Notes: generated by a model not told the origin, from the letters alone. 64,000 nt of DNA from Candidatus Enterousia sp. (GCA_045637165.1 JAZTYU010000025.1:5565-69564); one strand, 5' to 3'; numbered from the stretch's first letter, positions 36,749 through 55,222 are shown. Numbers and translations: made by a program.

Positions 36749-37463
36749 TTCGGACAACACGACAAAATGTTACCCCATATACTGCAGCTGCACCGTTTGC
36801 CATCAAAACACGACGTAATTCTGAAAAAGTTGCACCAGTTGTCATAACGTCATCAACTAATAAAATTTTACGACCACGAATCTTGTCAGGACGAACAACT
36901 GAAAATACACCGTGAATATTTTGGACCCGCTGACGTGAATTTTTATGTCCCATATCTGGCCGATATTTTCGACGAACAGAATCAACATCCATACGCACCC
37001 CCAACACACTGGCGATTGGACGGGCCAATAATGCCGCCTGGTTATAACCACGATGAAACAAACGACGGTTTGCCAGTGGCACTGGCATAACAATATCTGC
37101 ATTAACATCAACATCTTGCAATGCCCACATCATTGCCCGTGCCATAAATCGATAATGATTTATTTTTCCACAATGCTTGAACGGTAAAACCACCGCCTTG
37201 GACGCATCATCATAGACACATGCACTGCGAATCCAATCCAGTTCGCATTTGCCCGATGCACAAACCGGGCACATCGGTGCCGTATCAAAATCAATATCAC
37301 ACAGAAACGGATAACCACATTTAACACAATGCGGACCATCAATCCAATTTATTGACGTCCAGCACGTTTCACACAGTTCACCATGTGTTGATACCGGCGT
37401 ATCACATAATGGACACGCCGGTGGAAACAAAAATCCAATTATTTTACGAAACAACCCTACCAC
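36741..37463 (-). CDS. comF: ComF-family phosphoribosyltransferase-domain protein
   Basis: 240 aa. N-terminal Cys-rich zinc-finger region (CPLCD...CETC...CVKCG...CPVC) and a PRTase motif ILLVDDVMTTGAT. Confidence 0.85.
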   Translation of the reverse strand: MVGLFRKIIGFLFPPACPLCDTPVSTHGELCETCWTSINWIDGPHCVKCGYPFLCDIDFDTAPMCPVCASGKCELDWIRSACVYDDASKAVVLPFKHCGKINHYRFMARAMMWALQDVDVNADIVMPVPLANRRLFHRGYNQAALLARPIASVLGVRMDVDSVRRKYRPDMGHKNSRQRVQNIHGVFSVVRPDKIRGRKILLVDDVMTTGATFSELRRVLMANGAAAVYGVTFCRVVRTI

Positions 37464-38764
37464 GACATACTTTTATAGGTCTTTTTATCCAATGTATCGC
37501 CAAAGATATCACGCTTTTGCTGGGTCAAGGTTTCATACTGGTCGCTGGAAATAATACGCAATACAAAGCCAGGTTCATCCCGGGTTGATAAAACCGGAAC
37601 AATACGATGCTGGGATACACCATTATCAGTCAAAACCTGTTCGACAATTGCCAAGCGACGGGCCGCTAGTTTCCGTTCGTCCTTGCTTTTGGTCATATAC
37701 TGGGGGATTGCAACCTGAATTGCACGGGTTGGCTTGTTCACAACAATGCCCGCATATTCTGTCAGCAAATTATAGTTTTCACGTGAAAGTGCAGAATCTT
37801 CATTACGGAACTTGATTTTGATTTCCAGCGGACGAATTCCCGAGTCTTCGGATAAATCACGGCTGGCAGTAAAACCTTCGATTCCAGATGACATATCACT
37901 GGCGACATCAAAACTGTCATCAACAGAATATGTGGATAAATGTTTATTTTCCGACAAGAACGTTTTACGGAACGCCTTACGCAGTTCGGTCGGCGACATC
38001 TTGGTCATATCATCACGAACAGCGACAATACGGGGCGACGTTGTTTTTTCAACACTACGCACAACAACATCATCATTCATCGGAACGACCAAACGACGCA
38101 ACGATACAGATTCGTTCGATTTAGATGCTGACACTGTTTCAGCCGCTGCAATTTTCACAGGTTCTGGCTGAACAACCGGGCGTTCCGACACAGGTTCGGC
38201 AGCACTTGCAATCGGGGCAGCAATTACACGATTCGAAACCGTGCGAACACTGTCATTTGCACGTTTTTGCATTTCGACCAAGCGTGCAATCTGAGCATCA
38301 ATATCAGACGCCGGTTCTGTGGCAGCGGCAGTTGCTGCGACAGGCATAGCCTGGGGCTGTGGCAAAGCCGTGGCAATATGTTTATCCAAACTTTCTTCGG
38401 GCAATACAGAATCGGAACGAATAACCGAAAACTCATCAGGGCTTGGCATACGCAAGGCTAAATCCTGACGTGCCCACAAATCATTACTGGGGCGACGTGG
38501 CGTCAACACATCAGCAGCCGCAACAATAGCAGCACCAGAATCAATCGATTTTTCAACCGTTTTTGCAGAACGGGCAACAACAGAACGTGTGCGTGTTGGT
38601 GCAGTTTTTGCAACGACTGTTTTTGCAGGTTTTGACACATCTTCGCCAAAAGCACTGCGTGCAGAAACACCACCGGACGATAAATTCACAACCGGCAAAC
38701 GTGCGTTCGCCGCAGTCGGCAATACCAGACACACCGACAAGATACCAAATGTAAGATGACGCAT
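37457..38764 (-). CDS. Secreted protein with degenerate OmpA-like C-terminal domain
   Basis: 435 aa. Signal peptide (LVLPTAANA), a long A/V/S/R/P-rich low-complexity region, and a C-terminus (LEIKIKFRNEDSALS...ERKLAARRLAIVEQVLTDNGVSQHRIVPV) resembling the OmpA_C/MotB fold pattern. Confidence 0.55.
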   Translation of the reverse strand: MRHLTFGILSVCLVLPTAANARLPVVNLSSGGVSARSAFGEDVSKPAKTVVAKTAPTRTRSVVARSAKTVEKSIDSGAAIVAAADVLTPRRPSNDLWARQDLALRMPSPDEFSVIRSDSVLPEESLDKHIATALPQPQAMPVAATAAATEPASDIDAQIARLVEMQKRANDSVRTVSNRVIAAPIASAAEPVSERPVVQPEPVKIAAAETVSASKSNESVSLRRLVVPMNDDVVVRSVEKTTSPRIVAVRDDMTKMSPTELRKAFRKTFLSENKHLSTYSVDDSFDVASDMSSGIEGFTASRDLSEDSGIRPLEIKIKFRNEDSALSRENYNLLTEYAGIVVNKPTRAIQVAIPQYMTKSKDERKLAARRLAIVEQVLTDNGVSQHRIVPVLSTRDEPGFVLRIISSDQYETLTQQKRDIFGDTLDKKTYKSMSW

Positions 38765-39904: not shown

Positions 39905-40414
39905 TTAATATCTACCAATACACCCAAGATATGAATTTCCCGTCGATTCCAGAACATTTATAAACTGATTCTGATTGCGACCAGAAAAAAGTGCCAATAT
40001 TGTGCCAGAGTCCGTCGCCAGCATATCCGAAACAGTCGCAATCGTGGAATTCATCTGTTTGAAAAAGCCGCTGGTCGGATAAATTTCAGCCGCCAACAGT
40101 TGGGTTTGACCACGGGGACGGGCGTTTTTGCGTGATTCAATTACCATCAACTGGCATTCTGGGGATATTATCAGTTTGTCGCTGACAATACCATCACCAC
40201 CCAATAATTCACCCCACCAACCAGTAGAACCACAAAATACGGGGTAGTAAATTACCACATTTGGATTCGCAGACAACACCGCCGCAATGTCGATATCATC
40301 AGTGCATACGTCCGGCATTATCCCAGTCGAATTATTGATAACTTTGCGTGCCAACTGGTATTCGCTATCCCCAGTTGTTCGCCGTGGCCAGTAAAGAATC
40401 GGAAACTTTGTCAT
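39905..40414 (-). CDS. Hypothetical protein (169 aa)
   Basis: An ORF between the membrane-protein array and rpmE. No terminator lies before rpmE. No recognisable domain. Confidence 0.5.
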   Translation of the reverse strand: MTKFPILYWPRRTTGDSEYQLARKVINNSTGIMPDVCTDDIDIAAVLSANPNVVIYYPVFCGSTGWWGELLGGDGIVSDKLIISPECQLMVIESRKNARPRGQTQLLAAEIYPTSGFFKQMNSTIATVSDMLATDSGTILALFSGRNQNQFINVLESTGNSYLGCIGRY

Positions 40415-40482: not shown

Positions 40483-41772
40483 TTATTTTTTCATTGTCTC
40501 ATACCATTTTTTAAGGTTTTGCCACACTATATCAATGTTCTTTTTGGTTGTGTCATAGAAGTCTGTGGATATCTGAACGTTAAATAAACTCTTGGCCAGG
40601 GCAGGAATCAACGTCATAAACATCGCAATAAATATGCCCATCAAGATTATTGTTATCAGGCTGTCATTACGCATCATCAAGGCGTCCATTAAAAATTTCG
40701 AATCGTTTTGTGTCAATGCTGTCGCCAATGCAGGTGCCCCTGCCCAGTCGCCAAATATCGCATTCAGAAACATTACTGCAAACGCTACAAACACACCTGT
40801 TATCGCCAAGCCAAGTGTTGCAGATATAACATAATCAATTATTCCACGAATCGTATTACCAGCCCCAGCAAGCGATATTTTCCAGCCCTTGAACAGCCAC
40901 GCCAGTAGCATTAGCGGCAGCATTACCAAGTCCATCGCCAGGGTTATAAAGATTTCTAGGAAATACAATGGAATTGGTAACAACGCCATAAAAAACAAGA
41001 CCAGTATCGCAAGCCCTGCAAAAAACATTATGACATTTGGAAAGATCGGAATCTCCCACATAATTGTATGCATATAATCCGTATCAAATGCCATATTCAA
41101 CATCGTCCAACCAACCGTCATACCCAAACCTGTCATCTGATGAACACCAGATAACTCACACGCCAGGTTATGACGCAATTTCGGTGAAAACGTCCCAGAA
41201 TTTGATGCAGCAGCATCAATCGATGTCGAATCTGCCAGTGCCGTCGCAACAACACATGCATCAAAGCCATCTTCGTGAACAATCGCCCTGTTTAGCGAAA
41301 GACCTATGTTAAAAACAGGTTCTATCGCAATTTCAGATATCATTCGTGGCAGTGGGGCGACCAATAATGCAGCAACAACCCCCAGTTTGAACAAATGTGT
41401 TGTAAAAGTGTTTGCGATTGACCAGGGGCCTTGAATTTTCTGATTCATAAAGCCATCAAGCAATTTCCACGCAAACCAAGTAGCAGACAGAATTATCGCA
41501 AACGGAATAATTACACCACCCAACGAATGATAAACCTTGGGTAATAAATTCGACATCGTTGCCATAATGTCAGAAAACATACTGCACGTCCAACAACTGG
41601 AAAAAAACTGATACGCACTGGACATATCAACAGGAACAGTGCTGCGATAAATCGCAAAACCAGCAAGAACACCAACGCCTGCAATGCCGCCAACAACAAA
41701 CGGTGCAACCGCACCCGCCGTAAATGGCAAGAAAGACAAAAACGTAATCCAAAATTTTTTTATACGATTCAT
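40483..41772 (-). CDS. VirB6/TrbL-like polytopic membrane protein, paralog 1 of 5 (divergent copy)
   Basis: It shares family motifs with the four downstream paralogs: N-terminal CWTCSMFSDIM..., IEPVFNIGLSL, a loop Cys pair, 5-6 TM helices, and a K/W-rich tail (VWQNLKKWYETMKK). Start taken at ATG 41772; the track TTG 41802 is the alternative. Confidence 0.55.
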   Translation of the reverse strand: MNRIKKFWITFLSFLPFTAGAVAPFVVGGIAGVGVLAGFAIYRSTVPVDMSSAYQFFSSCWTCSMFSDIMATMSNLLPKVYHSLGGVIIPFAIILSATWFAWKLLDGFMNQKIQGPWSIANTFTTHLFKLGVVAALLVAPLPRMISEIAIEPVFNIGLSLNRAIVHEDGFDACVVATALADSTSIDAAASNSGTFSPKLRHNLACELSGVHQMTGLGMTVGWTMLNMAFDTDYMHTIMWEIPIFPNVIMFFAGLAILVLFFMALLPIPLYFLEIFITLAMDLVMLPLMLLAWLFKGWKISLAGAGNTIRGIIDYVISATLGLAITGVFVAFAVMFLNAIFGDWAGAPALATALTQNDSKFLMDALMMRNDSLITIILMGIFIAMFMTLIPALAKSLFNVQISTDFYDTTKKNIDIVWQNLKKWYETMKK

Positions 41773-41782
41773 TGCTTTTAAG

Positions 41783-41812
41783 TATATCACATTTTGTCCC
41801 AAATGTGATATA
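41783..41812. promoter_or_regulatory. Perfect 12-bp inverted repeat (candidate operator) in the divergent promoter region
   Basis: TATATCACATTT-tgtccc-AAATGTGATATA. It overlaps a TATAAT -10 box (41809-41814) facing the 4-gene operon and a TATACT box on the other strand. Confidence 0.55.
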
Positions 41813-41841
41813 ATTGAAATAATAAATATAAATTATAGAGA

Positions 41842-43110
41842 ATGTATATATTAAAAAAACTGTTCTGGGTTTGTGTTTTTGCGGGGGTGTTTTGCACGCC
41901 TGGGTCAGCATTTGCAGGAAACATCATTGATGCATTAAACCTGGCACCGTTTGTTTCGATGGTGCTGGACGCTTTTATGATGGTCGCAACAGGAACATAC
42001 GAATTTTTTGTCGGTAATGGCGACGGGATTATATATATTTTGATTTGGATGTTTTTAGGGCTGACCATTGCATTGGCATTGGCAAAAATGTATATGCCAA
42101 AGGCATGGGCAGGATTACTGGGTATGTCGGGCGGTGGCGAAATCGAAAGCGGAAAAATCACCGGAACTAAAATTATTGAAAATGTTATGAAGCCCGGTTT
42201 TCGTGCAATTATTGCAACGGTATTATTGTTGCAAATTAAACCTGTGTTTCTGACAGAATGGCTGATAAATCCTTTTTTACAACTGGGGTCAATTTATACA
42301 AACGCACTGACAGAAACAATCAATCAGCCAGGAATGAAAGGTCCAGAATTAAAATGCCCACCAGAGATTGTTGAAAAAGCTTGGATTTCCGAAGATTCAT
42401 GCAACTTTTTAATCCAGCCTGTGTCCGATTTGTCAAATGCAAACAACCAAATTATCAAGCGTGGTTTCGATTCGCTGACCAGCGGTTTGTTGGGACTGAT
42501 TACACTGGTACCACATGGGGGCGAAGACTTCTTGAACGTGATAACAGGTCTGGTTTTAATCATAACCTTTGTGGGCAGTAATTTGTTTATGGCCCTGCTG
42601 ATTATCCAGGGAATATTTAATATTGGCATGCAGTTGATTTTATATCCGTTCTTTGTGCTGACATATGTGTTCAAGTCAAGCGATAAATGGCTGGATGTGT
42701 GGCCGGCATTTGGCGGTATAACCAAGGCGTTGCAACAACTGATTATCACAATGATTGCCTGTGCATTTATGCTGTGTGTAAATTTGGCAATTATTCATGC
42801 GTTATTTGATTGGAACTCGTCTGTTTTTGTTGTCGCAGCAGGTGGAACAGCGACCAGCAACATCCCAACAGTCGGAACAGGAGCAATGGGATTTGGCGAA
42901 CATTCTGTAACCTGGATGTCGGCAATACTGACGTTCTATTTGTTCTTTAAAATTTATGATATCACACAAAAACAACTGAAAAAGTATATCGGTGGGGGAA
43001 TGGACGGACTGTATAACAGTGTAAAGTCTGATTCTAAAACGCTGTGGGCAGGTGCAAAAAAATGGGGAACAAATATCGGCAAGGCCGCCGGTTGGATAAA
43101 AGGAAAATAA
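41842..43110 (+). CDS. VirB6/TrbL-like polytopic membrane protein, paralog 2 of 5
   Basis: 422 aa. Signal-like N-terminus, INPFLQLGSIY motif, loop Cys pair (KCPPE...SCNF), multiple TM helices, K/W-rich tail (LWAGAKKWGTNIGKAAGWIKGK). Confidence 0.55.
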   Translation: MYILKKLFWVCVFAGVFCTPGSAFAGNIIDALNLAPFVSMVLDAFMMVATGTYEFFVGNGDGIIYILIWMFLGLTIALALAKMYMPKAWAGLLGMSGGGEIESGKITGTKIIENVMKPGFRAIIATVLLLQIKPVFLTEWLINPFLQLGSIYTNALTETINQPGMKGPELKCPPEIVEKAWISEDSCNFLIQPVSDLSNANNQIIKRGFDSLTSGLLGLITLVPHGGEDFLNVITGLVLIITFVGSNLFMALLIIQGIFNIGMQLILYPFFVLTYVFKSSDKWLDVWPAFGGITKALQQLIITMIACAFMLCVNLAIIHALFDWNSSVFVVAAGGTATSNIPTVGTGAMGFGEHSVTWMSAILTFYLFFKIYDITQKQLKKYIGGGMDGLYNSVKSDSKTLWAGAKKWGTNIGKAAGWIKGK

Positions 43111-43117
43111 ATAAACA

Positions 43118-44305
43118 ATGAATAATTGGTTGGGAAACTTGGTCGATAATACTGTGCAGTGTTGGGGCTGCGAGATATTTGACAGACTGTTTCAGATTGT
43201 GTCTGATGCAGCCGCCAATGTTTACAACCAGTTTGCGTTTGTATGCACCGTTTTATTCTGTGTGTTGTTTGCGTTCTTTGTATTAAACGCAGTTTGGAAA
43301 AGCATCAAAGGCGGTGGAACAGACCCACTTTATACAAAATCTGTGCAAAAGGTTTTTATCAACGCAATTGTATGTATCGGTTTTTTAGGTATGGGGGTGG
43401 CACTGCCACGATTTATAACAACTGTTACATTTGAACCTGCTGCACAAATCGCAATGACATATACCCAGGCAATGATAAACCTGGACCAGGAACAGGTTGC
43501 AGAAAAAATTACATACAAACCTATGAAAATGTCAGACGATGGTTTTTATCGCCCAGAACTGCGTGATAAAATTATTATGCTGATGAAAACAACTATCACA
43601 CAATTCCAGTCGTATATAAAACTGGGGATTGCAGTTATGGATTCGGCTTTTTCATGGAAGGCTCTGTTGGGTGTTGGCAGTTTAATAAAACACATTATCT
43701 TGTTTGTTATTGGGGCATATTTGTCGTGGTATTTCTTTAAGATGTTTTTCAGATTTTGCTGCTATTTTGCAGACATTATTATTGCAATGGTGTTTTTTGC
43801 GTTCTTTTTCCCATTATCATTAGCACTGTATTCATTCAAAGGGGCAGATAATGTGCCGGGTTGGATTGGCGGACTGGGCAAGACAATTGGTATCGGACAA
43901 TTTAAAAACTTGATAAACGCAATTATAACGTTGGCCTCAACCGTTATAACATACACAGTAATTATGGTTATCATCGCAAAGTTCTTTTCTGCACCAGGGG
44001 CATCAAACGCTGATTTGATGGCCGCAATTACCACAGGACAAATTTTTGATGCAGATTTAAACACTGAAAATTTACAAGCGTTGACATTGGCCAGTTGTTT
44101 GATTCTAACATATGTGTTGAACTTTATTTACGGACAAATTCCACAGGTTACAAAAATGATTCTGTCGGTATTTGGGGTCGATGAAAGTAAAACAAATAGT
44201 GAAAAGTTGGCAGACGATATGATGAATCTGACAAAAACTGTTTGGGACACAACAAAAAAAGTCGGTGAAGCAATTATTACAGGCGGGGAAAAAGATAAAA
44301 AATAA
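43118..44305 (+). CDS. VirB6/TrbL-like polytopic membrane protein, paralog 3 of 5
   Basis: 395 aa. The N-terminal layout CWGCEIFDRLFQIVSDAAANVYNQF, then a TM, then AVWKSIKGGG and VQKVFINAIVCIGFLG mirrors the N-terminal helix / TM1 / basic-Gly turn / TM2 pattern of VirB6. Tail VWDTTKKVGEAIITGGEKDKK. Confidence 0.58.
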   Translation: MNNWLGNLVDNTVQCWGCEIFDRLFQIVSDAAANVYNQFAFVCTVLFCVLFAFFVLNAVWKSIKGGGTDPLYTKSVQKVFINAIVCIGFLGMGVALPRFITTVTFEPAAQIAMTYTQAMINLDQEQVAEKITYKPMKMSDDGFYRPELRDKIIMLMKTTITQFQSYIKLGIAVMDSAFSWKALLGVGSLIKHIILFVIGAYLSWYFFKMFFRFCCYFADIIIAMVFFAFFFPLSLALYSFKGADNVPGWIGGLGKTIGIGQFKNLINAIITLASTVITYTVIMVIIAKFFSAPGASNADLMAAITTGQIFDADLNTENLQALTLASCLILTYVLNFIYGQIPQVTKMILSVFGVDESKTNSEKLADDMMNLTKTVWDTTKKVGEAIITGGEKDKK

Positions 44306-45798
44306 TGTTAAAAGCACAACTAATCTTGGTCGCTGTTAGATTCTTGATGGGGGCAATCGCATTAGGAATTGGAGTGTGGTATTTGTCATCATCAATCGGT
44401 GGTGCTGCACTGACATATACAAACATGGGAAATTTTCTGACCGCAATCGGTGTTGAAAACGGCGATATCGCCAGTGCAAATGCGTGCTTTATGTGTGGAT
44501 ATATCGCAGACTTGTTTTCAATAATCGGGGACGCAACCGAACGCTTTTGGAATTTGATGGTAAAAAATATTTGGGTGCTGGTGGCAGTTGGTTTTGGCAT
44601 CTTTATGTTTATCCACACTGTTCAATACATCTTTGACCACGCAAAGAAAACAATAAACTATGAAAAGCCAACAGAACACAAGATTGAATTCAAGGCCTGG
44701 TGGGACAAGGTTTGGAAGTTGGGTGTGCGAATTATGATTGTTGGGACCCTTATGGGGGCATTGGGTATGGGCGGTACCAGCGCACTGCGTAGTGTTTCAC
44801 AGATAACAATTACACCCGTTCTATATATGGGGGCAGAACTGGGTATGATTGCGTCCGGGGTGTCAGAGGCTGCCGATTGCGGTGCGTTAAGCAATGTCCA
44901 GTCTGGCAACAAATCAGACGATATCTTAAATCCAATTATGCAACCGTTTATGTGCGTAATGGGAAATATAAACAGCGTTATGCTGGCCGGGGCAGCAGGT
45001 GGTTTTTCAATGATGAATTATGCCTGGCTGGATTTAGGCGGTGGTGTGTTGACGTGGGTTGCAGGCTTGGTGCTGGTGTTGATGTTCCTGGTTATTGGAT
45101 TTGACCTGTTCTTTCAAATACTGTCAATTGTGTTTAAACTGGTCTTTATAATCATATTTATGCCATTACTGTTGGCGGCAAGTGCGTTTGAAGGAACTTG
45201 GTCCAAGGCAAGCGGTCTGGTCAGCAAGGCAATCGGAATGCTGGTGTCGTCTGCGGTGAGAATTGTCGCAATCACATTAAAGGTCTTGGTGATATACGCA
45301 ACTGTTTCATATACTGCTGACGCATATTTCCCAGGACCACGTGATGGATATAGTGTGGTCTTGCCACCAATGATGGGTCAAAAAATCGAAAATCCTGATG
45401 CACAAACGCTGTCTGTGATTGACGTATTTGCAACCTGCGAACAGGTGGCGTTGGTTGACGGTGAAATGGACAAGGATTTATTCAAAAACTGTTTCAATGC
45501 ACGCAAAGCTCAGGTCGAACGGTCTTATCCAGGGGCATTTGATTTCTTGGCCGACGGGTGGGAATTTTTGTTGATGATGGTATTCTTGTTCTTTTTATAC
45601 TATTACGCAATCAGTCCAAAAATTGACAAACTGTTGCCAAATGGTGGTGTTAAATTGCCAATACCTGGCGAAAACAGCAATGTGGCCACAGGTGAAACGT
45701 TTGACTTTGGTGCGTGGGTGCATGACCTGGGGCAAAAGATGTGGGCGGTGCCTGTGCAGATTACAGAAAAAATCACCAAGGCAATGGGTAAAAAATAA
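44305..45798 (+). CDS. VirB6/TrbL-like polytopic membrane protein, paralog 4 of 5
   Basis: 497 aa. CFMCGYIADLFSIIGDATERFW, ITPVLYMGAEL, a loop Cys pair, many TM helices, tail MWAVPVQITEKITKAMGKK. The start overlaps the previous stop (TAATG). Confidence 0.55.
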   Translation: MLKAQLILVAVRFLMGAIALGIGVWYLSSSIGGAALTYTNMGNFLTAIGVENGDIASANACFMCGYIADLFSIIGDATERFWNLMVKNIWVLVAVGFGIFMFIHTVQYIFDHAKKTINYEKPTEHKIEFKAWWDKVWKLGVRIMIVGTLMGALGMGGTSALRSVSQITITPVLYMGAELGMIASGVSEAADCGALSNVQSGNKSDDILNPIMQPFMCVMGNINSVMLAGAAGGFSMMNYAWLDLGGGVLTWVAGLVLVLMFLVIGFDLFFQILSIVFKLVFIIIFMPLLLAASAFEGTWSKASGLVSKAIGMLVSSAVRIVAITLKVLVIYATVSYTADAYFPGPRDGYSVVLPPMMGQKIENPDAQTLSVIDVFATCEQVALVDGEMDKDLFKNCFNARKAQVERSYPGAFDFLADGWEFLLMMVFLFFLYYYAISPKIDKLLPNGGVKLPIPGENSNVATGETFDFGAWVHDLGQKMWAVPVQITEKITKAMGKK

Positions 45799-47093
45799 TG
45801 AAGTGGATAAAAAAAATCTTTGGTGGGATTATTATTGCAATTACTGCAATAACATTGGCAGCACCTGCATTTTGTGCAGCCAGCAATATGCCTATGCCTG
45901 ATATTGGCGATAATGGGACGTGGGCAACAGATAACAACAAAGAATTATTTGTTGGCGAATTGACCAATGATATCAATCAATTTCAGGGCGAATTCCAGAA
46001 AAAAGTCGTTAAAGACTATGTTCCAATAGAGGCTAAAATTGGTCTGACATTTATGAATGCTTTGTCTTTTGTAAGCGATGTTCTGGATTCGTCCTTGGTT
46101 CGATTTGTTGTGCTGTTTATGTTTATTGCTTTTATGTTCTGGGTAATGTTCGAAACTTACAATATGATGCAGGGTGGCAAAGGCAACACAATGGATCTGA
46201 TTAAAAACATCGTAAAAAAAGGAACGATGATTGCAATTTGGGTCGTTGTTTTGCGTTTTGGACCAGCACAGATTTTCATGTGGATAATGGGTCCAATTGT
46301 CAGCGTTGGGACATATCTGGCAGACTTTATATTAGATGCAGTGGCCGCCAGTGCGGGGGCAGAACTGCCCAATACATGTGCAGCAATTCGTGAATATACG
46401 GCTGCTAATATTTCTGCAAATAACATAATTGATGCAAATGCCGCCGCAGATATGATGTGCCTGCCAACAAGACTGTCAGGTTTTTGCTATACAGCGATTG
46501 CAGCAGGTTTCAAGTGGATGCTGGCTGGAATTGGACGCAGTGCATTTACTTTTATTGGCGGCCTGTTATTTGTTGTGATGTTCATTATGATTGCATGGAA
46601 ATTTATGTTTATGGCACTGGGGGTTATCGCAGACTTGTTCCTGGGGGTTATGATGTTGCCTTTTACCGCAATCAAGGAAACAATTGGCAGCACTTCATAC
46701 AAGGGTATGGCCGGAAATATCTTTAACAGTTTCTTGAAAATATTCAGCACAGAATCACTGGACGACCAGATAAAACGATTTGTTCAGGCGGCAATATATT
46801 TTGTTTCACTGTCAATCATAGTGGCTTTTTGTGCGGCAATGCTGTCAGGGGTTGTTGATGCAGATATTGCGTCCAGAATCCCAACACTGGAAAACGATGG
46901 GTTCTGGGTAACCGTTTTAGTTGGGGCGTTAACCTGGTGGTTTGCAAATCAGGCAATGGATTTGGCAAAAAAACTGGGGGGCAGTATAACAACATCTGTT
47001 GGCGACCAAATGCGTGGCGATATTAAAAAGATGTGGGATAATACCACTGGCACAGCGAAAAAATGGTGGAAGATTATCAAAGATGGCAAATAA
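45798..47093 (+). CDS. VirB6/TrbL-like polytopic membrane protein, paralog 5 of 5
   Basis: 431 aa. Signal peptide, MGPIVSVGTYL motif, loop Cys pair (NTCAAIRE...MMCLPTRLSGFC), tail KKMWDNTTGTAKKWWKIIKDGK. The start overlaps the previous stop (TAATG). Confidence 0.55.
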   Translation: MKWIKKIFGGIIIAITAITLAAPAFCAASNMPMPDIGDNGTWATDNNKELFVGELTNDINQFQGEFQKKVVKDYVPIEAKIGLTFMNALSFVSDVLDSSLVRFVVLFMFIAFMFWVMFETYNMMQGGKGNTMDLIKNIVKKGTMIAIWVVVLRFGPAQIFMWIMGPIVSVGTYLADFILDAVAASAGAELPNTCAAIREYTAANISANNIIDANAAADMMCLPTRLSGFCYTAIAAGFKWMLAGIGRSAFTFIGGLLFVVMFIMIAWKFMFMALGVIADLFLGVMMLPFTAIKETIGSTSYKGMAGNIFNSFLKIFSTESLDDQIKRFVQAAIYFVSLSIIVAFCAAMLSGVVDADIASRIPTLENDGFWVTVLVGALTWWFANQAMDLAKKLGGSITTSVGDQMRGDIKKMWDNTTGTAKKWWKIIKDGK

Positions 47094-47095
47094 AA

Positions 47096-47121
47096 ATAAA
47101 ATCAGGTCAAAAGACCTGATT
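47096..47121. terminator. Bidirectional hairpin terminator
   Basis: ATCAGGTC-aaaa-GACCTGAT flanked by A/T runs, between the array and fabZ. Confidence 0.7.
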
Positions 47122-47577
47122 TTATTTTTGTAATTTTTCTAATGCGTCTTTTTGCAAAACTGCTGTAAAGGTTGCTTCGGCCACCTTTTTACCGCCAACC
47201 ATTGCAATGCCGTGGAACTTATACAGACTTAGTTTTGTAAGCAATAACTCAACATGCAATTCCAGTTTATCGCCAGGACGGACCATATGCGAAAACTTTA
47301 TTTTTTCCATTGTAGTAAAATAACCCAATGTGGTTTTGCGTTCTTCGTCAGATAACCGTGAAAACGCAACAAAGCACGCTGTTTGTGCCAATGCTTCGAC
47401 CTGAAGAACACCTGGCATAATCGGATTGTCTGGAAAATGACCAGCACACCAAAATTCGTCATCACGGACGTATTTTACACCAACGGCACTGGTATCATTA
47501 TATTCACGAACTTCGTCAATTAAACGCATATTACCACGATGTGGTATCACATGTTCTATTTCTTGTGCGTCAATCAT
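47122..47577 (-). CDS. fabZ: 3-hydroxyacyl-ACP dehydratase FabZ
   Basis: 151 aa. IPHRGNMRLID...GHFPDNPIMPGVLQVEALAQ motif. Confidence 0.95.
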   Translation of the reverse strand: MIDAQEIEHVIPHRGNMRLIDEVREYNDTSAVGVKYVRDDEFWCAGHFPDNPIMPGVLQVEALAQTACFVAFSRLSDEERKTTLGYFTTMEKIKFSHMVRPGDKLELHVELLLTKLSLYKFHGIAMVGGKKVAEATFTAVLQKDALEKLQK

Positions 47578-52916: not shown

Positions 52917-52947
52917 AAAAACACAGCGTAAAATACGCTGTTTTTTT
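52917..52947. terminator. Second, bidirectional hairpin terminator
   Basis: ACAGCGTA-aaa-TACGCTGT followed by T7. It serves the convergent Cys-rich gene as well. Confidence 0.65.
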
Positions 52948-55222
52948 ATATCATACCAGTCCCTGTTCCATATACACATTTACTGTTTTTCATGTAATAA
53001 TTATCTTCACACACACATGAACCGTAAGTATTACGTATCGCATTATTACCACAATGTGCCACACAGGAATTACCCCATGGCTCATAACCGTTTTTACACA
53101 TACAATGTGCATTTACATAGAAGCCAACTGAATTTCCACTGCCATTTGCTATTTTGTCTGGTTCGGCCGCTGTTGATTGATAAATGGAATTTTCTGGGCA
53201 CAACAATGACTGATAGAACATTTCAGATACGCCTTCTAGGTATTGTTCATCTGTTGGCTCAGTCACAACTGAGCATTCTGTTTTTCCTGAGTTATCAATA
53301 CAAATCTCTATTTCACTGTTATAAAATATGGCGTATGCACAGGTCAACGCAACATTGCGGCATGCACCACGCATTACGTTATAAATGCTTTTGATGCTGG
53401 CAGATGAAGACCAGGAATTTAATTGCGATACCTGTTGATTATAGCAGGATGCAATATCAAGCATACAACTGGACGCATAATCAGAAATTATATTCTGTTG
53501 TGCTGAATTGATGTTTACCATCGCACGTTGAACATAATTTATAACAACATCATTGTATGGTTTATATTTTCCATTATCATCATAGGTATAACGCTGACAT
53601 TTATCCAAAACGGCACGGCACAGGCCTTCTTCGGTAACGGACTGTTTGGTTCCGATTTTTTGCAACAGATATTTAGCAACGCACGAACCATCGTTCGAAC
53701 CTTCTGCCTTGCAGTCGGTATCGGATATTTTCTGAGATGAATATGCATCTGTTAAAAATGTCGTGTCAATCGTAGCATTATTATACGATTTCATAAATTC
53801 GGTGATATCTGATATCTTTTGCCCCAGAACAACATTACCGTTTTCATCGATATAACGTTTGGTTGGGTCAACGCATTTGAAATAATCGTCGCCACAAACC
53901 ATGTCGTCTTTCATACATGTTTCCAGTGCAGCGATACAGCCCTTGGCATCATATTGATTTTTATTCTGCAATACCGCCAGACGTGCCTTTTGCAACATAC
54001 GGTTTGCACTGCGAACATTGGAAACCAGCGTTTCGTTCATCTTGGTCAAACCCTGTTCATAGGCAATACAATCCTTGTCAATTGCCAGGTCGTAATTTCC
54101 GGTAATCTGACTAACCGTTGCACCGGCCCCCTTGCACTGATTCAAAACAGTTGTGCAACGTTTTTTTGCAGCACTGTAAAGGTCAGAACCACGCAGATTT
54201 GAAAAACTGCTGGCACTGTCAGTATTCAGGAAATCCAAACTAAATAAATCTGCTGTTTCTGATGAAAAATCCAAATCCATATCAAATGTTGAAAATGTAT
54301 CAGACGAATACGACGAATTAGACACAGGGTCACGAATTAAATCTTCGATTTCTTGTAATAAATTACGGTTTTCAGATGTATCAACGGTGCCGCTTAGGGC
54401 TTCTTCGGCCTCAGTCTCGGTCATGATGGCACGAATTTCGTCTGCGGACAAACCAACATAGCGGATACGTTGGGCAACCTCGTTCAATTGGTTATTGGCA
54501 TCCTTGACAGCCTCTTCTACCTTGGTATAACGGGATAGATTCGATGAACATGAACAACGTCCCTGATTGGCATCGATTACGGCACAGAACTGGTCCATGC
54601 ATTCATTATACTGTTGCTGACAAGATTTATTTAACGTTGCTGTTTGTTCCAAGCGTTCGGTTGCCTGGGCAATTGTTTCACGATTTTTCTCAGCAGCGGC
54701 ACGTGATTGAATAGAACGCACAACCTCGTCAATATTGGAACCAGTCTGTTGGCCTGTATCACCAATTGTGGCACGACCGCCAACCTCGGCCGTTGAAGGA
54801 CGCAGGGTCAGTCCAGCCCGACGAACCACGGGATTGCTGTTGATACTGGCCGATGATACACGCTTATTACGGCCAACCGTATTGACCGCCGTGCTAAGAT
54901 TACTGCGGGCAACATCTTCGCCGTCAGACGATGATGTTAACGCACGGGATATGATTGTTGCACGTGCAGGGTCCACAGGCGTGTCTGTTTTTTTCTTGTC
55001 CGTGGTTGCCCCGGTAAAAACACGTGATACTGTATTTTGCACATCAGGCACCTGGCCAGTTGGACGGGTTGCAACACGGGAAACCGTTCCACGTTCGGTT
55101 GCGGAACTGGAATTTTCAGTCTTTTTCGCCGTAGGAATTGCACGAGAAATAGCCCCGTCAGCCGCAAAGGCCGTGGGTGCTGCGATTATTAGTGCAAAAA
55201 TACACGTTAACAGTCTTGTCAT
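52946..55222 (-). CDS. Large secreted cysteine-rich protein (758 aa), unknown function
   Basis: Signal peptide (IFALIIAAPTAFA). About 190 aa of S/T/R-rich low complexity with repeated VSR-like motifs. An acidic F/D/S segment. About 30 Cys in paired spacings through the C-terminal ~560 aa, ending in an EGF-like cluster (CMCKNGYEPWGNSCVAHCG...CVCEDNYYMKNSKC). Confidence 0.7.
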   Translation of the reverse strand: MTRLLTCIFALIIAAPTAFAADGAISRAIPTAKKTENSSSATERGTVSRVATRPTGQVPDVQNTVSRVFTGATTDKKKTDTPVDPARATIISRALTSSSDGEDVARSNLSTAVNTVGRNKRVSSASINSNPVVRRAGLTLRPSTAEVGGRATIGDTGQQTGSNIDEVVRSIQSRAAAEKNRETIAQATERLEQTATLNKSCQQQYNECMDQFCAVIDANQGRCSCSSNLSRYTKVEEAVKDANNQLNEVAQRIRYVGLSADEIRAIMTETEAEEALSGTVDTSENRNLLQEIEDLIRDPVSNSSYSSDTFSTFDMDLDFSSETADLFSLDFLNTDSASSFSNLRGSDLYSAAKKRCTTVLNQCKGAGATVSQITGNYDLAIDKDCIAYEQGLTKMNETLVSNVRSANRMLQKARLAVLQNKNQYDAKGCIAALETCMKDDMVCGDDYFKCVDPTKRYIDENGNVVLGQKISDITEFMKSYNNATIDTTFLTDAYSSQKISDTDCKAEGSNDGSCVAKYLLQKIGTKQSVTEEGLCRAVLDKCQRYTYDDNGKYKPYNDVVINYVQRAMVNINSAQQNIISDYASSCMLDIASCYNQQVSQLNSWSSSASIKSIYNVMRGACRNVALTCAYAIFYNSEIEICIDNSGKTECSVVTEPTDEQYLEGVSEMFYQSLLCPENSIYQSTAAEPDKIANGSGNSVGFYVNAHCMCKNGYEPWGNSCVAHCGNNAIRNTYGSCVCEDNYYMKNSKCVYGTGTGMI

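What the first reader, a model, noticed from the sequence alone, without database searches (positions are those of the whole stretch)
40483..47093. Five-member paralogous array of compact VirB6/TrbL-like membrane proteins, not attached to virB3/virB4
Five ORFs (about 430, 422, 395, 497 and 431 aa) are clearly homologous to one another. They share an N-terminal amphipathic segment followed by a TM and a basic/Gly turn. They share a conserved [IFM].P[VFAI]..[ILMV]G motif: IEPVFNIGLSL, INPFLQLGSIY, FEPAAQIAMTY, ITPVLYMGAEL, MGPIVSVGTYL. They also share a large loop, a cluster of 4-6 further TM helices and a Lys/Trp-rich C-terminal tail. One copy is divergent. The other four are translationally coupled (a 7-nt gap, then two TAATG stop/start overlaps). 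The N-terminal layout of paralog 3 (helix, TM1, KSIKGGG turn, TM2) resembles VirB6/TrbL. In Rickettsiales the rvh T4SS is known for 3-5 tandem virB6 paralogs, but those follow virB3-virB4 and are much larger. Here the array sits alone between rpmE and fabZ-lpxD, about 34 kb from virB8-10. It is therefore either a new compact form of VirB6 proliferation or a previously undescribed membrane-protein system.
Basis: partly seen in the sequence, partly recalled or inferred. Interest (0 to 1): 0.82.

Follow-up and report, generated by a model that had tools for sequence, protein, structure and literature searches.

The report
Compact five-gene VirB6-like array in Enterousia
A tiny-genome gut bacterium (Candidatus Enterousia) carries five unannotated, very divergent copies of VirB6, the inner-membrane core protein of type IV secretion machines, in a conserved stand-alone gene array, a stripped-down version of the unexplained VirB6 multiplication known from Rickettsia and its relatives.

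Summary
Five ORFs (P1 on the minus strand; P2-P5 on the plus strand, joined by a 7-nt gap and two TAATG overlaps) lie between rpmE and fabZ-lpxD, 34 kb from virB8-9-10. The same layout occurs in 79 of 83 related loci, all from Candidatus Enterousia (order Rs-D84, genomes under 1 Mb).

Pairwise similarity among the five is weak. Iterative profile searches still unite them in one superfamily with 0 of 1191 decoys.

No Pfam or NCBIfam model hits them, and shallow profiles do not match canonical VirB6. Four other lines support VirB6/TrbL homology:
- Distant relatives in larger tandem arrays of other Alphaproteobacteria/Rickettsiales-labelled MAGs hit Pfam TrbL, one above threshold.
- Those relatives align the same core segment to both the Enterousia and the VirB6 profiles.
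- A deep superfamily profile built without any VirB6 aligns to canonical VirB6 at 89-91% probability over about 260 columns (reversed control below 1%).
- AlphaFold models of P3 and P5 both have R388 TrwI/VirB6 as best PDB match.

The essential VirB6 Trp is not conserved in register, and no other T4SS gene is adjacent.

Verdict: a new compact, stand-alone variant of the rvh-type multicopy VirB6 array. A T4SS role is inferred, not shown.

The parts
40483..41772 (-). P1: the divergently transcribed VirB6-like paralog. It has an N-terminal membrane anchor, a CWTC..F motif, an 'EP....G' motif, a loop with Cys residues, a TM cluster with 'LPLMLLAWLF', and a K/W-rich tail.
   Evidence: ORF (the mechanical ORF extends to a TTG at 41802; the ATG at 41772 gives 429 aa, as in the L001 ortholog). 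Orthologs in 79 loci. hhalign to P3 96.7%. Matches bridging protein P0203 at 67.7 bits.
41842..43110 (+). P2: first gene of the four-gene co-directional set. Signal-peptide-type N-terminus, no CxxC motif. It is the most isolated paralog.
   Evidence: hhalign to P5 94.5%. Recruited in iterations started from P1, P3, P4, P5 and from canonical VirB6.
43118..44305 (+). P3: the smallest paralog (395 aa). N-terminal QCWGC..FD helix, TM1, KSIKGGG turn, TM2, loop, then a TM cluster with 'FPLSLALYSF'.
   Evidence: AF2 model pLDDT 66. Top five PDB matches are TrwI/VirB6.
44305..45798 (+). P4: the largest paralog (497 aa). N-terminal anchor, CFMC motif, core 'MPLLLAASAF'.
   Evidence: TAATG overlap with P3. 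Matches the 514-aa protein of the L098 array at 75.8 bits; that protein also hits Pfam TrbL.
45798..47093 (+). P5: last gene. Signal peptide, conserved loop Cys residues (C194, C221), degenerate core 'MLPFTAI', K/W-rich tail.
   Evidence: TAATG overlap with P4. AF2 model pLDDT 64. Top four PDB matches are TrwI/VirB6, target-normalised TM 0.50-0.51. First Enterousia group reached when iterating from canonical VirB6.
41785..41810 (.). Perfect inverted repeat TATCACATTT-N6-AAATGTGATA in the P1/P2 divergent intergenic region. It overlaps extended -10-like elements facing both ways. It is either a candidate operator or a pair of back-to-back promoters.
   Evidence: Unique in the window (0.02 expected). 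Present with at most 2 mismatches per arm in 64 of 79 related loci.
47090..47131 (+). Hairpin plus T-run after P5, between the convergent P5 and fabZ genes. Likely terminator of the P2-P5 transcript.
39905..40414 (-). Conserved 169-aa ORF immediately downstream of P1 on the same strand. It may be a sixth gene of the unit. No hydrophobic segment was noted on reading its sequence, and no family matches.
   Evidence: No Pfam match. A homolog lies 50-100 nt downstream of P1 in 74 of 76 loci.
2067..6753 (+). virB8 (2067-2738), virB9 (2751-4307) and virB10 (4327-6753): the only other T4SS genes in the window and the presumed partners of the array.
   Evidence: Pfam VirB8, CagX and TrbI above threshold. 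The trio is conserved in 80 metagenomic loci.

Best explanation
The five genes encode very divergent, domain-only paralogs of VirB6/TrbL, the polytopic inner-membrane protein that forms the membrane-embedded base of the type IV secretion stalk and the platform for pilin or substrate passage. They form a conserved chromosomal unit in Candidatus Enterousia: P1 is transcribed one way, and P2-P5 the other way as one translationally coupled transcript. The array most likely supplies the inner-membrane/stalk module of a chromosomally scattered, rvh-like T4SS whose VirB8-VirB9-VirB10 genes lie 34 kb away. The tight coupling of P2-P5 suggests that the paralogs are made together and assemble into a mixed (hetero-oligomeric) VirB6 ring rather than acting as alternatives. 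Shown: the ORFs, their conservation and layout, their common ancestry, homology and fold similarity to VirB6, and the presence of virB8-10 in the same genome. Inferred: that they work with VirB8-10, that they co-assemble, and their membrane topology (N-terminal segment and large loop periplasmic, K/W-rich tail cytoplasmic, by analogy with Agrobacterium VirB6).
For: (1) One superfamily: iterative HMM searches from P1, P3, P4 or P5 recruit all five groups, 39 distant representatives and 14 proteins of three other arrays, with 0 of 1191 decoys. (2) Intermediates: relatives P0202, P0203, P0210, the L098 514-aa protein and the L100 789-aa protein hit Pfam TrbL at profile positions about 82-195 (34.2 bits, above the 25.9 cut-off, then 21.2, 24.6, 23.5 and 17.3). 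P0203 matches the P1 profile (67.7 bits, residues 330-671) and an independent 14-sequence canonical VirB6 profile (32.8 bits, residues 518-687) over overlapping residues. (3) Register: the P1, P3 and P4 profiles align their '..PL......F' segment to the very residues that the VirB6 profile aligns to 'GPlfiiallFeatr'. (4) From canonical VirB6, iteration reaches all five groups by round 6 with 0 decoys. (5) Superfamily profiles built without any VirB6 align to canonical VirB6 at 91.4, 89.4 and 91.1% probability, E about 1e-6, over 247-269 columns covering VirB6 columns 11-284 of 350. Reversed controls give 0.3-0.6%. (6) Structure: for the P3 and P5 models the best hits among 350,542 PDB chains are R388 TrwI/VirB6 (probability 0.99-1.00; P5 target-normalised TM 0.50-0.51 over about 320 columns), while unrelated hits have probability 0.3 or less. 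(7) virB8/9/10 are in the same genome. Multicopy tandem VirB6 is an established hallmark of rvh systems (PMC2653234, PMC11077975). (8) The layout is kept in 79 of 83 loci at 49-99% identity, so the genes are under selection.
Against: No Pfam or NCBIfam hit for any of the five proteins. Ortholog-level profiles do not match canonical VirB6 (5.7% or less), and the converged HMMs do not score canonical VirB6 directly. The link therefore depends on deep profiles and intermediates. The AF2 models are of only moderate confidence (pLDDT 64-66), and the TM-scores for P3 are low (0.25-0.34). The essential Trp of VirB6 is not conserved in register. No virB2/3/4/5/11/D4 lies in the 64-kb window, within 10 kb of the array in 85 loci, or within 10 kb of virB8-10 in 80 loci, so a complete T4SS is unproven. 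The inverted repeat at the array promoter is absent upstream of virB8. No RvhB6 sequence was available for direct comparison.
Confidence: 0.65

Rival explanations
1. The proteins descend from VirB6 but now form a T4SS-independent membrane complex, for example for uptake of metabolites or contact with partner cells. That would suit a bacterium lacking most biosynthesis and standard transporters.
For: The array is never next to any T4SS gene. No VirB4, VirB11 or VirD4 was seen. The essential VirB6 Trp is not conserved in register. The array-specific inverted repeat is not shared with virB8-10. Enterousia genomes are reported to lack standard transporters and to encode many unassigned membrane proteins (PMC12306168).
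Against: virB8-9-10 are retained and conserved in these tiny genomes, which implies a working machine that needs a VirB6. No other VirB6 candidate was seen. rvh genes are also scattered into islets in Rickettsiales (PMC2653234), so lack of adjacency is weak evidence.
Confidence: 0.2
2. They are a novel polytopic membrane-protein family unrelated to VirB6. The similarity would then be an artefact of hydrophobic composition and profile drift.
For: No direct Pfam, NCBIfam or PDB sequence hit. Shallow hhalign is not significant. The 'P..L....F...W' regex occurs in 7-20% of composition-matched shuffles. The models have moderate pLDDT.
Against: 0 of 1191 decoys (118 polytopic) were recruited in either direction. 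Reversed-alignment controls give below 1% against about 90%. The core is in consistent register in three independent bridging proteins. Pfam's own TrbL model hits five relatives at the same profile positions. Two separately modelled paralogs both rank VirB6 first. Genuine Agrobacterium VirB6 also fails to find TrwI by sequence, so a direct miss is expected in this family.
Confidence: 0.1
3. The array is a decaying remnant of an integrated conjugative element or plasmid transfer region.
For: VirB6 genes are typical of conjugative elements. The array is detached from the other vir genes.
Against: All five ORFs are intact, and the order is identical in 79 of 83 loci spanning 49-99% identity. The array's GC content (0.414) matches the window (0.421). 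Neighbours are housekeeping genes, with no relaxase or integrase. The stop/start overlaps are preserved.
Confidence: 0.03

Closest known systems
Rickettsiales vir homolog (rvh) T4SS RvhB6 paralog arrays (Rickettsia rvhB6a-e; four tandem virB6 in Wolbachia and Anaplasma)
   Same: Tandem array of 4-5 VirB6-family paralogs in an alphaproteobacterium with a reduced genome. The paralogs are extremely divergent from each other (RvhB6 about 80% divergent within the TrbL domain; here 20-25% identity). T4SS genes are scattered into islets on the chromosome. The Enterousia proteins (395-497 aa) match the size of the RvhB6 TrbL domain (mean 413 aa) (PMC2653234).
   Different: There are no large N- or C-terminal extensions (RvhB6 is 674-1154 aa). 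The array does not follow virB3-virB4 and stands alone between housekeeping genes. One paralog is divergently transcribed. None is recognised by Pfam TrbL, whereas all RvhB6 are. The host is a gut lineage (order Rs-D84), not classified in Rickettsiales by NCBI.
Canonical MPF-T VirB6/TrwI/TraD (Agrobacterium VirB6, R388 TrwI; Pfam PF04610 TrbL)
   Same: Polytopic inner-membrane protein. It has an N-terminal helix with an 'F/I-D' motif, a first TM hairpin, a large loop, and a TM cluster containing a conserved Pro-Leu...Phe segment. There is near-full-length profile-profile alignment and best structural match.
   Different: Canonical VirB6 is single-copy and lies between virB5/eex and virB8. It is 295-365 aa long, has an essential Trp that is not in register here, and lacks the CWxC motif found in P1, P3 and P4.
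Larger tandem arrays in other uncultured Alphaproteobacteria/Rickettsiales-labelled MAGs (loci L098, L099, L100)
   Same: Five co-directional paralogs plus one or two divergently oriented genes, among housekeeping genes and with no adjacent vir genes. They share the CWxC..F, EP....G and PL....F motifs.
   Different: The proteins are larger (365-858 aa). Two arrays are preceded by an 86-88-aa two-TM ORF that Enterousia lacks. Some members are still detectable by Pfam TrbL. Two of the contigs have 28-30% GC.

Membership tests
TrbL/VirB6 (Pfam PF04610) | Match to the Pfam PF04610 model at or above its gathering score | tested here: not met
   No hit even at E <= 10 for P1-P5. Met or nearly met only by distant relatives (P0202 34.2 bits against 25.9; four others 17-25 bits).
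TrbL/VirB6 (Pfam PF04610) | Profile-level homology to bona fide VirB6 sequences | tested here: met
   Shallow ortholog profiles are not significant. Deep superfamily profiles without VirB6 give 89-91% probability, E about 1e-6, over 247-269 columns, with reversed control below 1%. Iteration from canonical VirB6 reaches all five groups with 0 of 1191 decoys.
TrbL/VirB6 (Pfam PF04610) | Fold like the solved VirB6 (R388 TrwI in the stalk complex) | tested here: met
   TrwI chains are the top 5 hits for P3 and the top 4 for P5 among 350,542 PDB chains. Probability 0.99-1.00; P5 target-normalised TM 0.50-0.51; P3 TM 0.25-0.34. The models are of moderate confidence (pLDDT 64-66).
TrbL/VirB6 (Pfam PF04610) | Conserved core segment (GPL....F..T+) in the TM/cytoplasmic region, in register | tested here: met
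   Pro and Phe align in register through three bridging proteins and in the converged alignment. P5 is degenerate.
TrbL/VirB6 (Pfam PF04610) | Invariant, essential Trp after the core segment (PMC2653234) | tested here: not met
   The Trp column of AtVirB6/TrwI is not Trp in P1-P5 or in the bridging proteins. P1-P4 have a Trp 3-12 residues after the Phe, but out of register.
TrbL/VirB6 (Pfam PF04610) | Polytopic inner-membrane protein with at least 5 TM segments and a large central loop | tested here: met
   Hydropathy gives 5-7 segments per protein, with a long loop between the N-terminal pair and the C-terminal cluster, similar to AtVirB6 and TrwI. No dedicated topology predictor was available.
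TrbL/VirB6 (Pfam PF04610) | Encoded within or beside a T4SS gene cluster | tested here: not met
   No T4SS gene within 10 kb in 85 loci. virB8-10 lie 33.7 kb away in the same window.
Rickettsiales rvh-type multicopy RvhB6 | Several tandem, mutually very divergent VirB6 paralogs | tested here: met
   Five paralogs, 20-25% pairwise identity, conserved in 79 of 83 loci.
Rickettsiales rvh-type multicopy RvhB6 | Large flanking extensions around the TrbL domain (674-1154 aa proteins) | tested here: not met
   395-497 aa, roughly the domain alone.
Rickettsiales rvh-type multicopy RvhB6 | Array located downstream of rvhB3-rvhB4 | tested here: not met
   Flanks are rpmE/orf169 and fabZ-lpxD. No VirB3/VirB4 was found in 85 loci.
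Rickettsiales rvh-type multicopy RvhB6 | Other rvh hallmarks: duplicated VirB4, VirB8 and VirB9, and no VirB5 (PMC11077975) | not testable with these tools
   Only 64 kb of the genome plus 10-kb flanks were readable. One virB8 and one virB9 were seen.
Rickettsiales rvh-type multicopy RvhB6 | Direct sequence relationship to RvhB6a-e | not tested
   No Rickettsiales RvhB6 sequence was obtainable. The P0203 search returned only itself.
TraG_N (F-type VirB6 analogue, Pfam PF07916) | Match to the Pfam model | tested here: not met
   No hit at E <= 10.

The most novel reading that the evidence does not exclude
The five paralogs assemble one-each into a hetero-pentameric VirB6 ring, matching the 5-fold symmetry of the T4SS stalk. 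Their divergent periplasmic loops would then take over the role of the missing VirB5 tip. If so, Enterousia would be a minimal, extension-free model that explains why rvh-type systems multiply VirB6. A further possibility is that this ring works without a VirB4-powered T4SS, as a contact or uptake device for a partner-dependent bacterium.
Probability: 0.2. Interest if true: 0.8.

Novelty: new variant of a known kind. Interest (0 to 1): 0.6.

Why it matters
Multiplied, divergent VirB6 genes are a signature of the Rickettsiales rvh secretion system, and their purpose is still described as a mystery (bioRxiv 10.1101/2025.08.29.673095).

This array shows the same multiplication in a widespread, uncultured gut lineage (order Rs-D84) that is not placed in Rickettsiales, has genomes under 1 Mb, and for which no T4SS has been discussed in the searchable literature. 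The proteins are reduced to the bare domain and are invisible to Pfam and NCBI annotation; every named database copy is 'hypothetical protein'.

Three consequences follow:
- The known range of VirB6 proliferation is extended.
- Five unannotated membrane proteins per genome across more than 180 species-level genomes gain a family assignment.
- There is now a compact system for testing whether the paralogs form a mixed 5-fold stalk base.

It also points to a secretion or contact machine as a candidate for how these metabolically dependent bacteria deal with partner cells.

Tried and rejected
- **Direct family scans:** Pfam and NCBIfam scans of the five proteins gave nothing relevant. The weak FAM70 and FlhB matches are judged spurious.
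- **PDB sequence searches:** searches with P3 and with its ortholog profile gave only noise.
- **Shallow profile comparison:** hhalign of ortholog-level profiles against a 14-sequence VirB6 alignment was not significant, barely above the reversed control. It was superseded by deep profiles.
- **Regex motif:** the P..L....F...W motif looked striking but occurs in 7-20% of composition-matched shuffles and is absent in literal form from the bridging proteins. It was dropped as evidence.
- **Homolog search with P0203:** aimed at named RvhB6 proteins, it returned only the query.
- **Structure job on locus-derived P5 orthologs:** I used the last protein search to obtain an admissible alignment instead.
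- **Look-up of the window's own VirB9:** not on record.
- **Array promoter inverted repeat upstream of virB8-10:** absent, so there is no evidence of co-regulation.
- **T4SS genes near the array or near virB8-10:** none found in 85 and 80 loci respectively.
- **L003:** it looked like a variant layout but is the normal array cut by the contig end, with only the C-terminal part of P2.
- **Mobile-element origin:** rejected on composition, synteny and intactness.

Full report
**1. What is there**

The five ORFs exist as described. P1 is on the minus strand. Its mechanical ORF is 40483-41802, but the ATG at 41772 gives the 429 aa seen in orthologs. P2 (41842-43110), P3 (43118-44305), P4 (44305-45798) and P5 (45798-47093) are on the plus strand. 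P2 and P3 are separated by 7 nt, and P3/P4 and P4/P5 share TAATG stop/start overlaps. A hairpin with a T-run follows P5 at 47090-47131.

The left flank is a conserved 169-aa ORF, then rpmE and an inositol-monophosphatase-family gene. The right flank is fabZ, lpxD, nusA and infB. virB8, virB9 and virB10 are at 2067-6753. No VirB4, VirB11 or VirD4 is in the window. The array's GC content (0.414) equals that of the window (0.421).

**2. Organism and conservation**

P3 and P5 each have hundreds of relatives. All named ones are 'hypothetical protein' from uncultured Alphaproteobacteria, and the only precomputed Pfam entry on any of them is the FAM70 match (PF14967) carried by a few P5 orthologs, judged spurious. 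In species-representative genomes the relatives belong to Candidatus Enterousia, which some records label 'uncultured Rickettsiales'. One locus is 98% identical to the window, and one closed genome is 958,618 bp. NCBI places the genus in Alphaproteobacteria incertae sedis. A 2025 paper assigns it to GTDB order Rs-D84, describes genomes under 1 Mb and a probable partner-dependent lifestyle, and never mentions secretion systems (PMC12306168).

The order P1(-) P2 P3 P4 P5(+) is present in 79 of 83 loci, and the other four are cut by contig ends. Identity to the window proteins ranges from 49 to 99%. The unit is therefore old, intact and under selection.

**3. Are the five homologous?**

Pairwise the signal is weak: 20-25% identity and 30-49 bits, and phmmer sees only the P1-P3 pair. 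Profiles built from orthologs give a connected network of long, colinear alignments:

| Pair | hhalign probability |
|---|---|
| P1-P3 | 96.7% |
| P2-P5 | 94.5% |
| P1-P5 | 83.8% |
| P3-P4 | 79% |
| P2-P3, P2-P4 | not significant directly |

I ran iterative HMM searches (inclusion E <= 1e-4 at Z = 100,000) against a test set holding 1191 decoy ORFs from the same loci, 118 of them with at least four TM-like segments. Started from P1, P3, P4 or P5, the searches converge on all five groups and recruit no decoy. The paralogy is real. P1, P3 and P4 share an N-terminal CWxC..F motif. P2 and P5 have signal-peptide-like N-termini instead.

**4. Are they VirB6? Negative results first**

- Pfam and NCBIfam find nothing.
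- PDB sequence searches find nothing.
- Ortholog-level profiles do not match a 14-sequence alignment of bona fide plasmid VirB6/TrwI proteins (5.7% or less).
- As a calibration, genuine Agrobacterium VirB6 itself fails to find R388 TrwI in the PDB by sequence. A direct miss is therefore weak evidence against membership.

**5. Positive evidence**

*(a) Distant relatives that Pfam recognises.* An exhaustive profile search found only 100 relatives among 1.84 billion representatives. Of the 26 longest or most distant ones scanned, three hit Pfam TrbL, one above threshold. These proteins sit in tandem arrays of their own, again among housekeeping genes with no adjacent vir genes:

| Locus | Divergent genes (aa) | Co-directional genes (aa) |
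|---|---|---|
| L098 | 504 | 88, 557, 678, 687, 514, 858 |
| L099 | 664, 420 | 86, 770, 781, 857, 474, 650 |
| L100 | 636, 213 | 473, 457, 365, 418, 789 |

Two further array members also have TrbL as their top Pfam hit, at the same profile positions. The named sources for relatives are Alphaproteobacteria and 'Rickettsiales bacterium' MAGs.

*(b) Overlapping matches in the bridging proteins.* P0203 matches the P1 profile (67.7 bits, residues 330-671) and my canonical VirB6 profile (32.8 bits, residues 518-687). The L098 514-aa protein matches P4 (75.8 bits) and VirB6 (21 bits).

*(c) Register.* The printed alignments show that the P1, P3 and P4 '..PL......F' segment and the VirB6 'GPlfiiallFeatr' signature fall on the same residues of these proteins.

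*(d) Iteration from canonical VirB6.* It reaches all five Enterousia groups by round 6, with no decoys.

*(e) Deep profile-profile comparison.* Superfamily profiles converged without any canonical VirB6 align to the VirB6 alignment at 91.4, 89.4 and 91.1% probability (E about 1e-6). The alignments span 247-269 columns, covering VirB6 columns 11-284 of 350. Reversed controls give 0.3-0.6%.

*(f) Structure.* AlphaFold2 models of P3 (pLDDT 66) and P5 (pLDDT 64) each have R388 TrwI/VirB6 stalk chains as their best PDB matches. For P3 these are the top five hits (probability up to 0.99, TM 0.25-0.34). For P5 they are the top four (probability 1.00, target-normalised TM 0.50-0.51, about 320 columns). 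Unrelated hits follow at probability 0.3 or less.

**6. What does not fit**

- The essential Trp of VirB6 is not conserved in register in P1-P5 or in the bridging proteins.
- A regex that seemed to capture it is not statistically meaningful.
- The array is never beside other T4SS genes.
- The virB8-9-10 trio, conserved in 80 metagenomic loci, also has no VirB2/3/4/5/11/D4 within 10 kb.
- Whether VirB4 exists elsewhere in these genomes could not be tested.

**7. Regulation**

The 69-nt P1/P2 intergenic region holds a perfect inverted repeat, TATCACATTT-N6-AAATGTGATA, at 41785-41810. It overlaps extended -10-like elements that face both ways. It is unique in the window (0.02 expected by chance) and present in 64 of 79 related loci. 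It is absent upstream of virB8. It may be an operator, or simply two back-to-back promoters.

**8. How it most likely works**

In R388, VirB6 sits in the inner membrane as the 5-fold base of the stalk. It is thought to recruit pilin at a membrane site and assemble it at its top, and its first two TM helices bind VirB10 (PMC11294453). VirB6 is also reported to contact VirB8 (title and abstract of PMC6003364).

By homology I propose that P1-P5 form this inner-membrane module for a scattered, rvh-like T4SS built with the VirB8-VirB9-VirB10 proteins encoded 34 kb away. The translational coupling of P2-P5 points to joint production and a mixed oligomer. Five paralogs and a 5-fold stalk suggest one of each, but this is speculation, since Wolbachia has four copies.

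Topology is inferred, not tested. By analogy with Agrobacterium VirB6, the N-terminus and large loop would be periplasmic and the C-terminus cytoplasmic (my own knowledge of the published topology work). This fits three features: the signal peptides or anchors that precede the conserved N-terminal segment in P1, P2, P4 and P5; the conserved loop cysteines; and the basic tails.

**9. Comparison with what is known**

The closest known system is the RvhB6 array of Rickettsiales. Rickettsia has five tandem copies that are about 80% divergent from one another, with TrbL domains averaging 413 aa inside proteins of 674-1154 aa, located after rvhB3-rvhB4 (PMC2653234). Multicopy RvhB6 is listed as an rvh hallmark, and the rvh system is called a rickettsial signature (PMC11077975).

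The Enterousia array shares the multiplicity, the divergence and the scattered gene organisation. It differs in four ways: the proteins are domain-only, the array stands alone, one gene is divergently transcribed, and the proteins are undetectable by curated models. It also lies in a gut lineage outside Rickettsiales as currently classified. I found no paper linking Rs-D84 or Enterousia to type IV secretion.

I therefore rate it a new variant of a known kind.

**10. Limits**

- The link to VirB6 is transitive and profile-based.
- The structural models are of moderate confidence.
- No RvhB6 sequence could be compared.
- T4SS completeness is unknown.
- Function is inferred.

Noticed in passing
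window 41785-41810: Perfect 10-bp-arm inverted repeat (TATCACATTT-N6-AAATGTGATA; the arms extend to 12 bp as TATATCACATTT/AAATGTGATATA) in the P1/P2 divergent promoter. It is conserved in 64 of 79 related loci and unique in the window. It could be an operator for an unknown regulator, or two back-to-back extended -10 promoters.
   Followed up: partly
window 39905-40414 (-): A 169-aa ORF with no Pfam match, always 50-100 nt downstream of P1 on the same strand (74 of 76 loci) and upstream of rpmE. It may be a sixth member of the unit or merely syntenic.
   Followed up: partly
window 4327-6753 (+): VirB10 is unusually long (808 aa against about 380-395 aa in R388 and Acetobacter). It has a Pro/Glu-rich spacer and a Cys-rich C-terminal tail (…CEGNIAPDANGCCPGEIYTDMGEQGFNCCPETGGDCFPPIL).
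   Followed up: no
window 6754-7803: About 1 kb between virB10 and yidC holds only small ORFs (123 aa at 7016-7387, 113 aa at 7434-7775). virB11 and virD4, which often follow virB10, are absent.
   Followed up: no
L098:9734-10000 and L099:4967-5227: Small 86-88-aa proteins with two hydrophobic helices and a basic tail sit directly in front of the larger VirB6-like arrays in two other lineages. This is a VirB3- or pilin-like shape, but they show no detectable similarity to R388 or Acetobacter VirB2/VirB3. Enterousia has no equivalent.
   Followed up: partly
window 52946-55222 (-) and 37457-38764 (-): Two sizeable ORFs (758 aa and 435 aa, the latter with a signal-peptide-like N-terminus) have no Pfam match.
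   Followed up: no
window 45798-47093 (P5): P5 and a few of its orthologs carry a weak, sub-threshold match to Pfam FAM70 (PF14967; 21 bits against a cut-off of 27). This is probably hydrophobic-composition noise, but it is present in precomputed annotations.
   Followed up: partly
L098 and L099 (whole loci): The contigs carrying two of the intermediate arrays have 28-30% GC, against 42% for Enterousia. This suggests strongly reduced, endosymbiont-like genomes. Their taxonomy was not determined.
   Followed up: no
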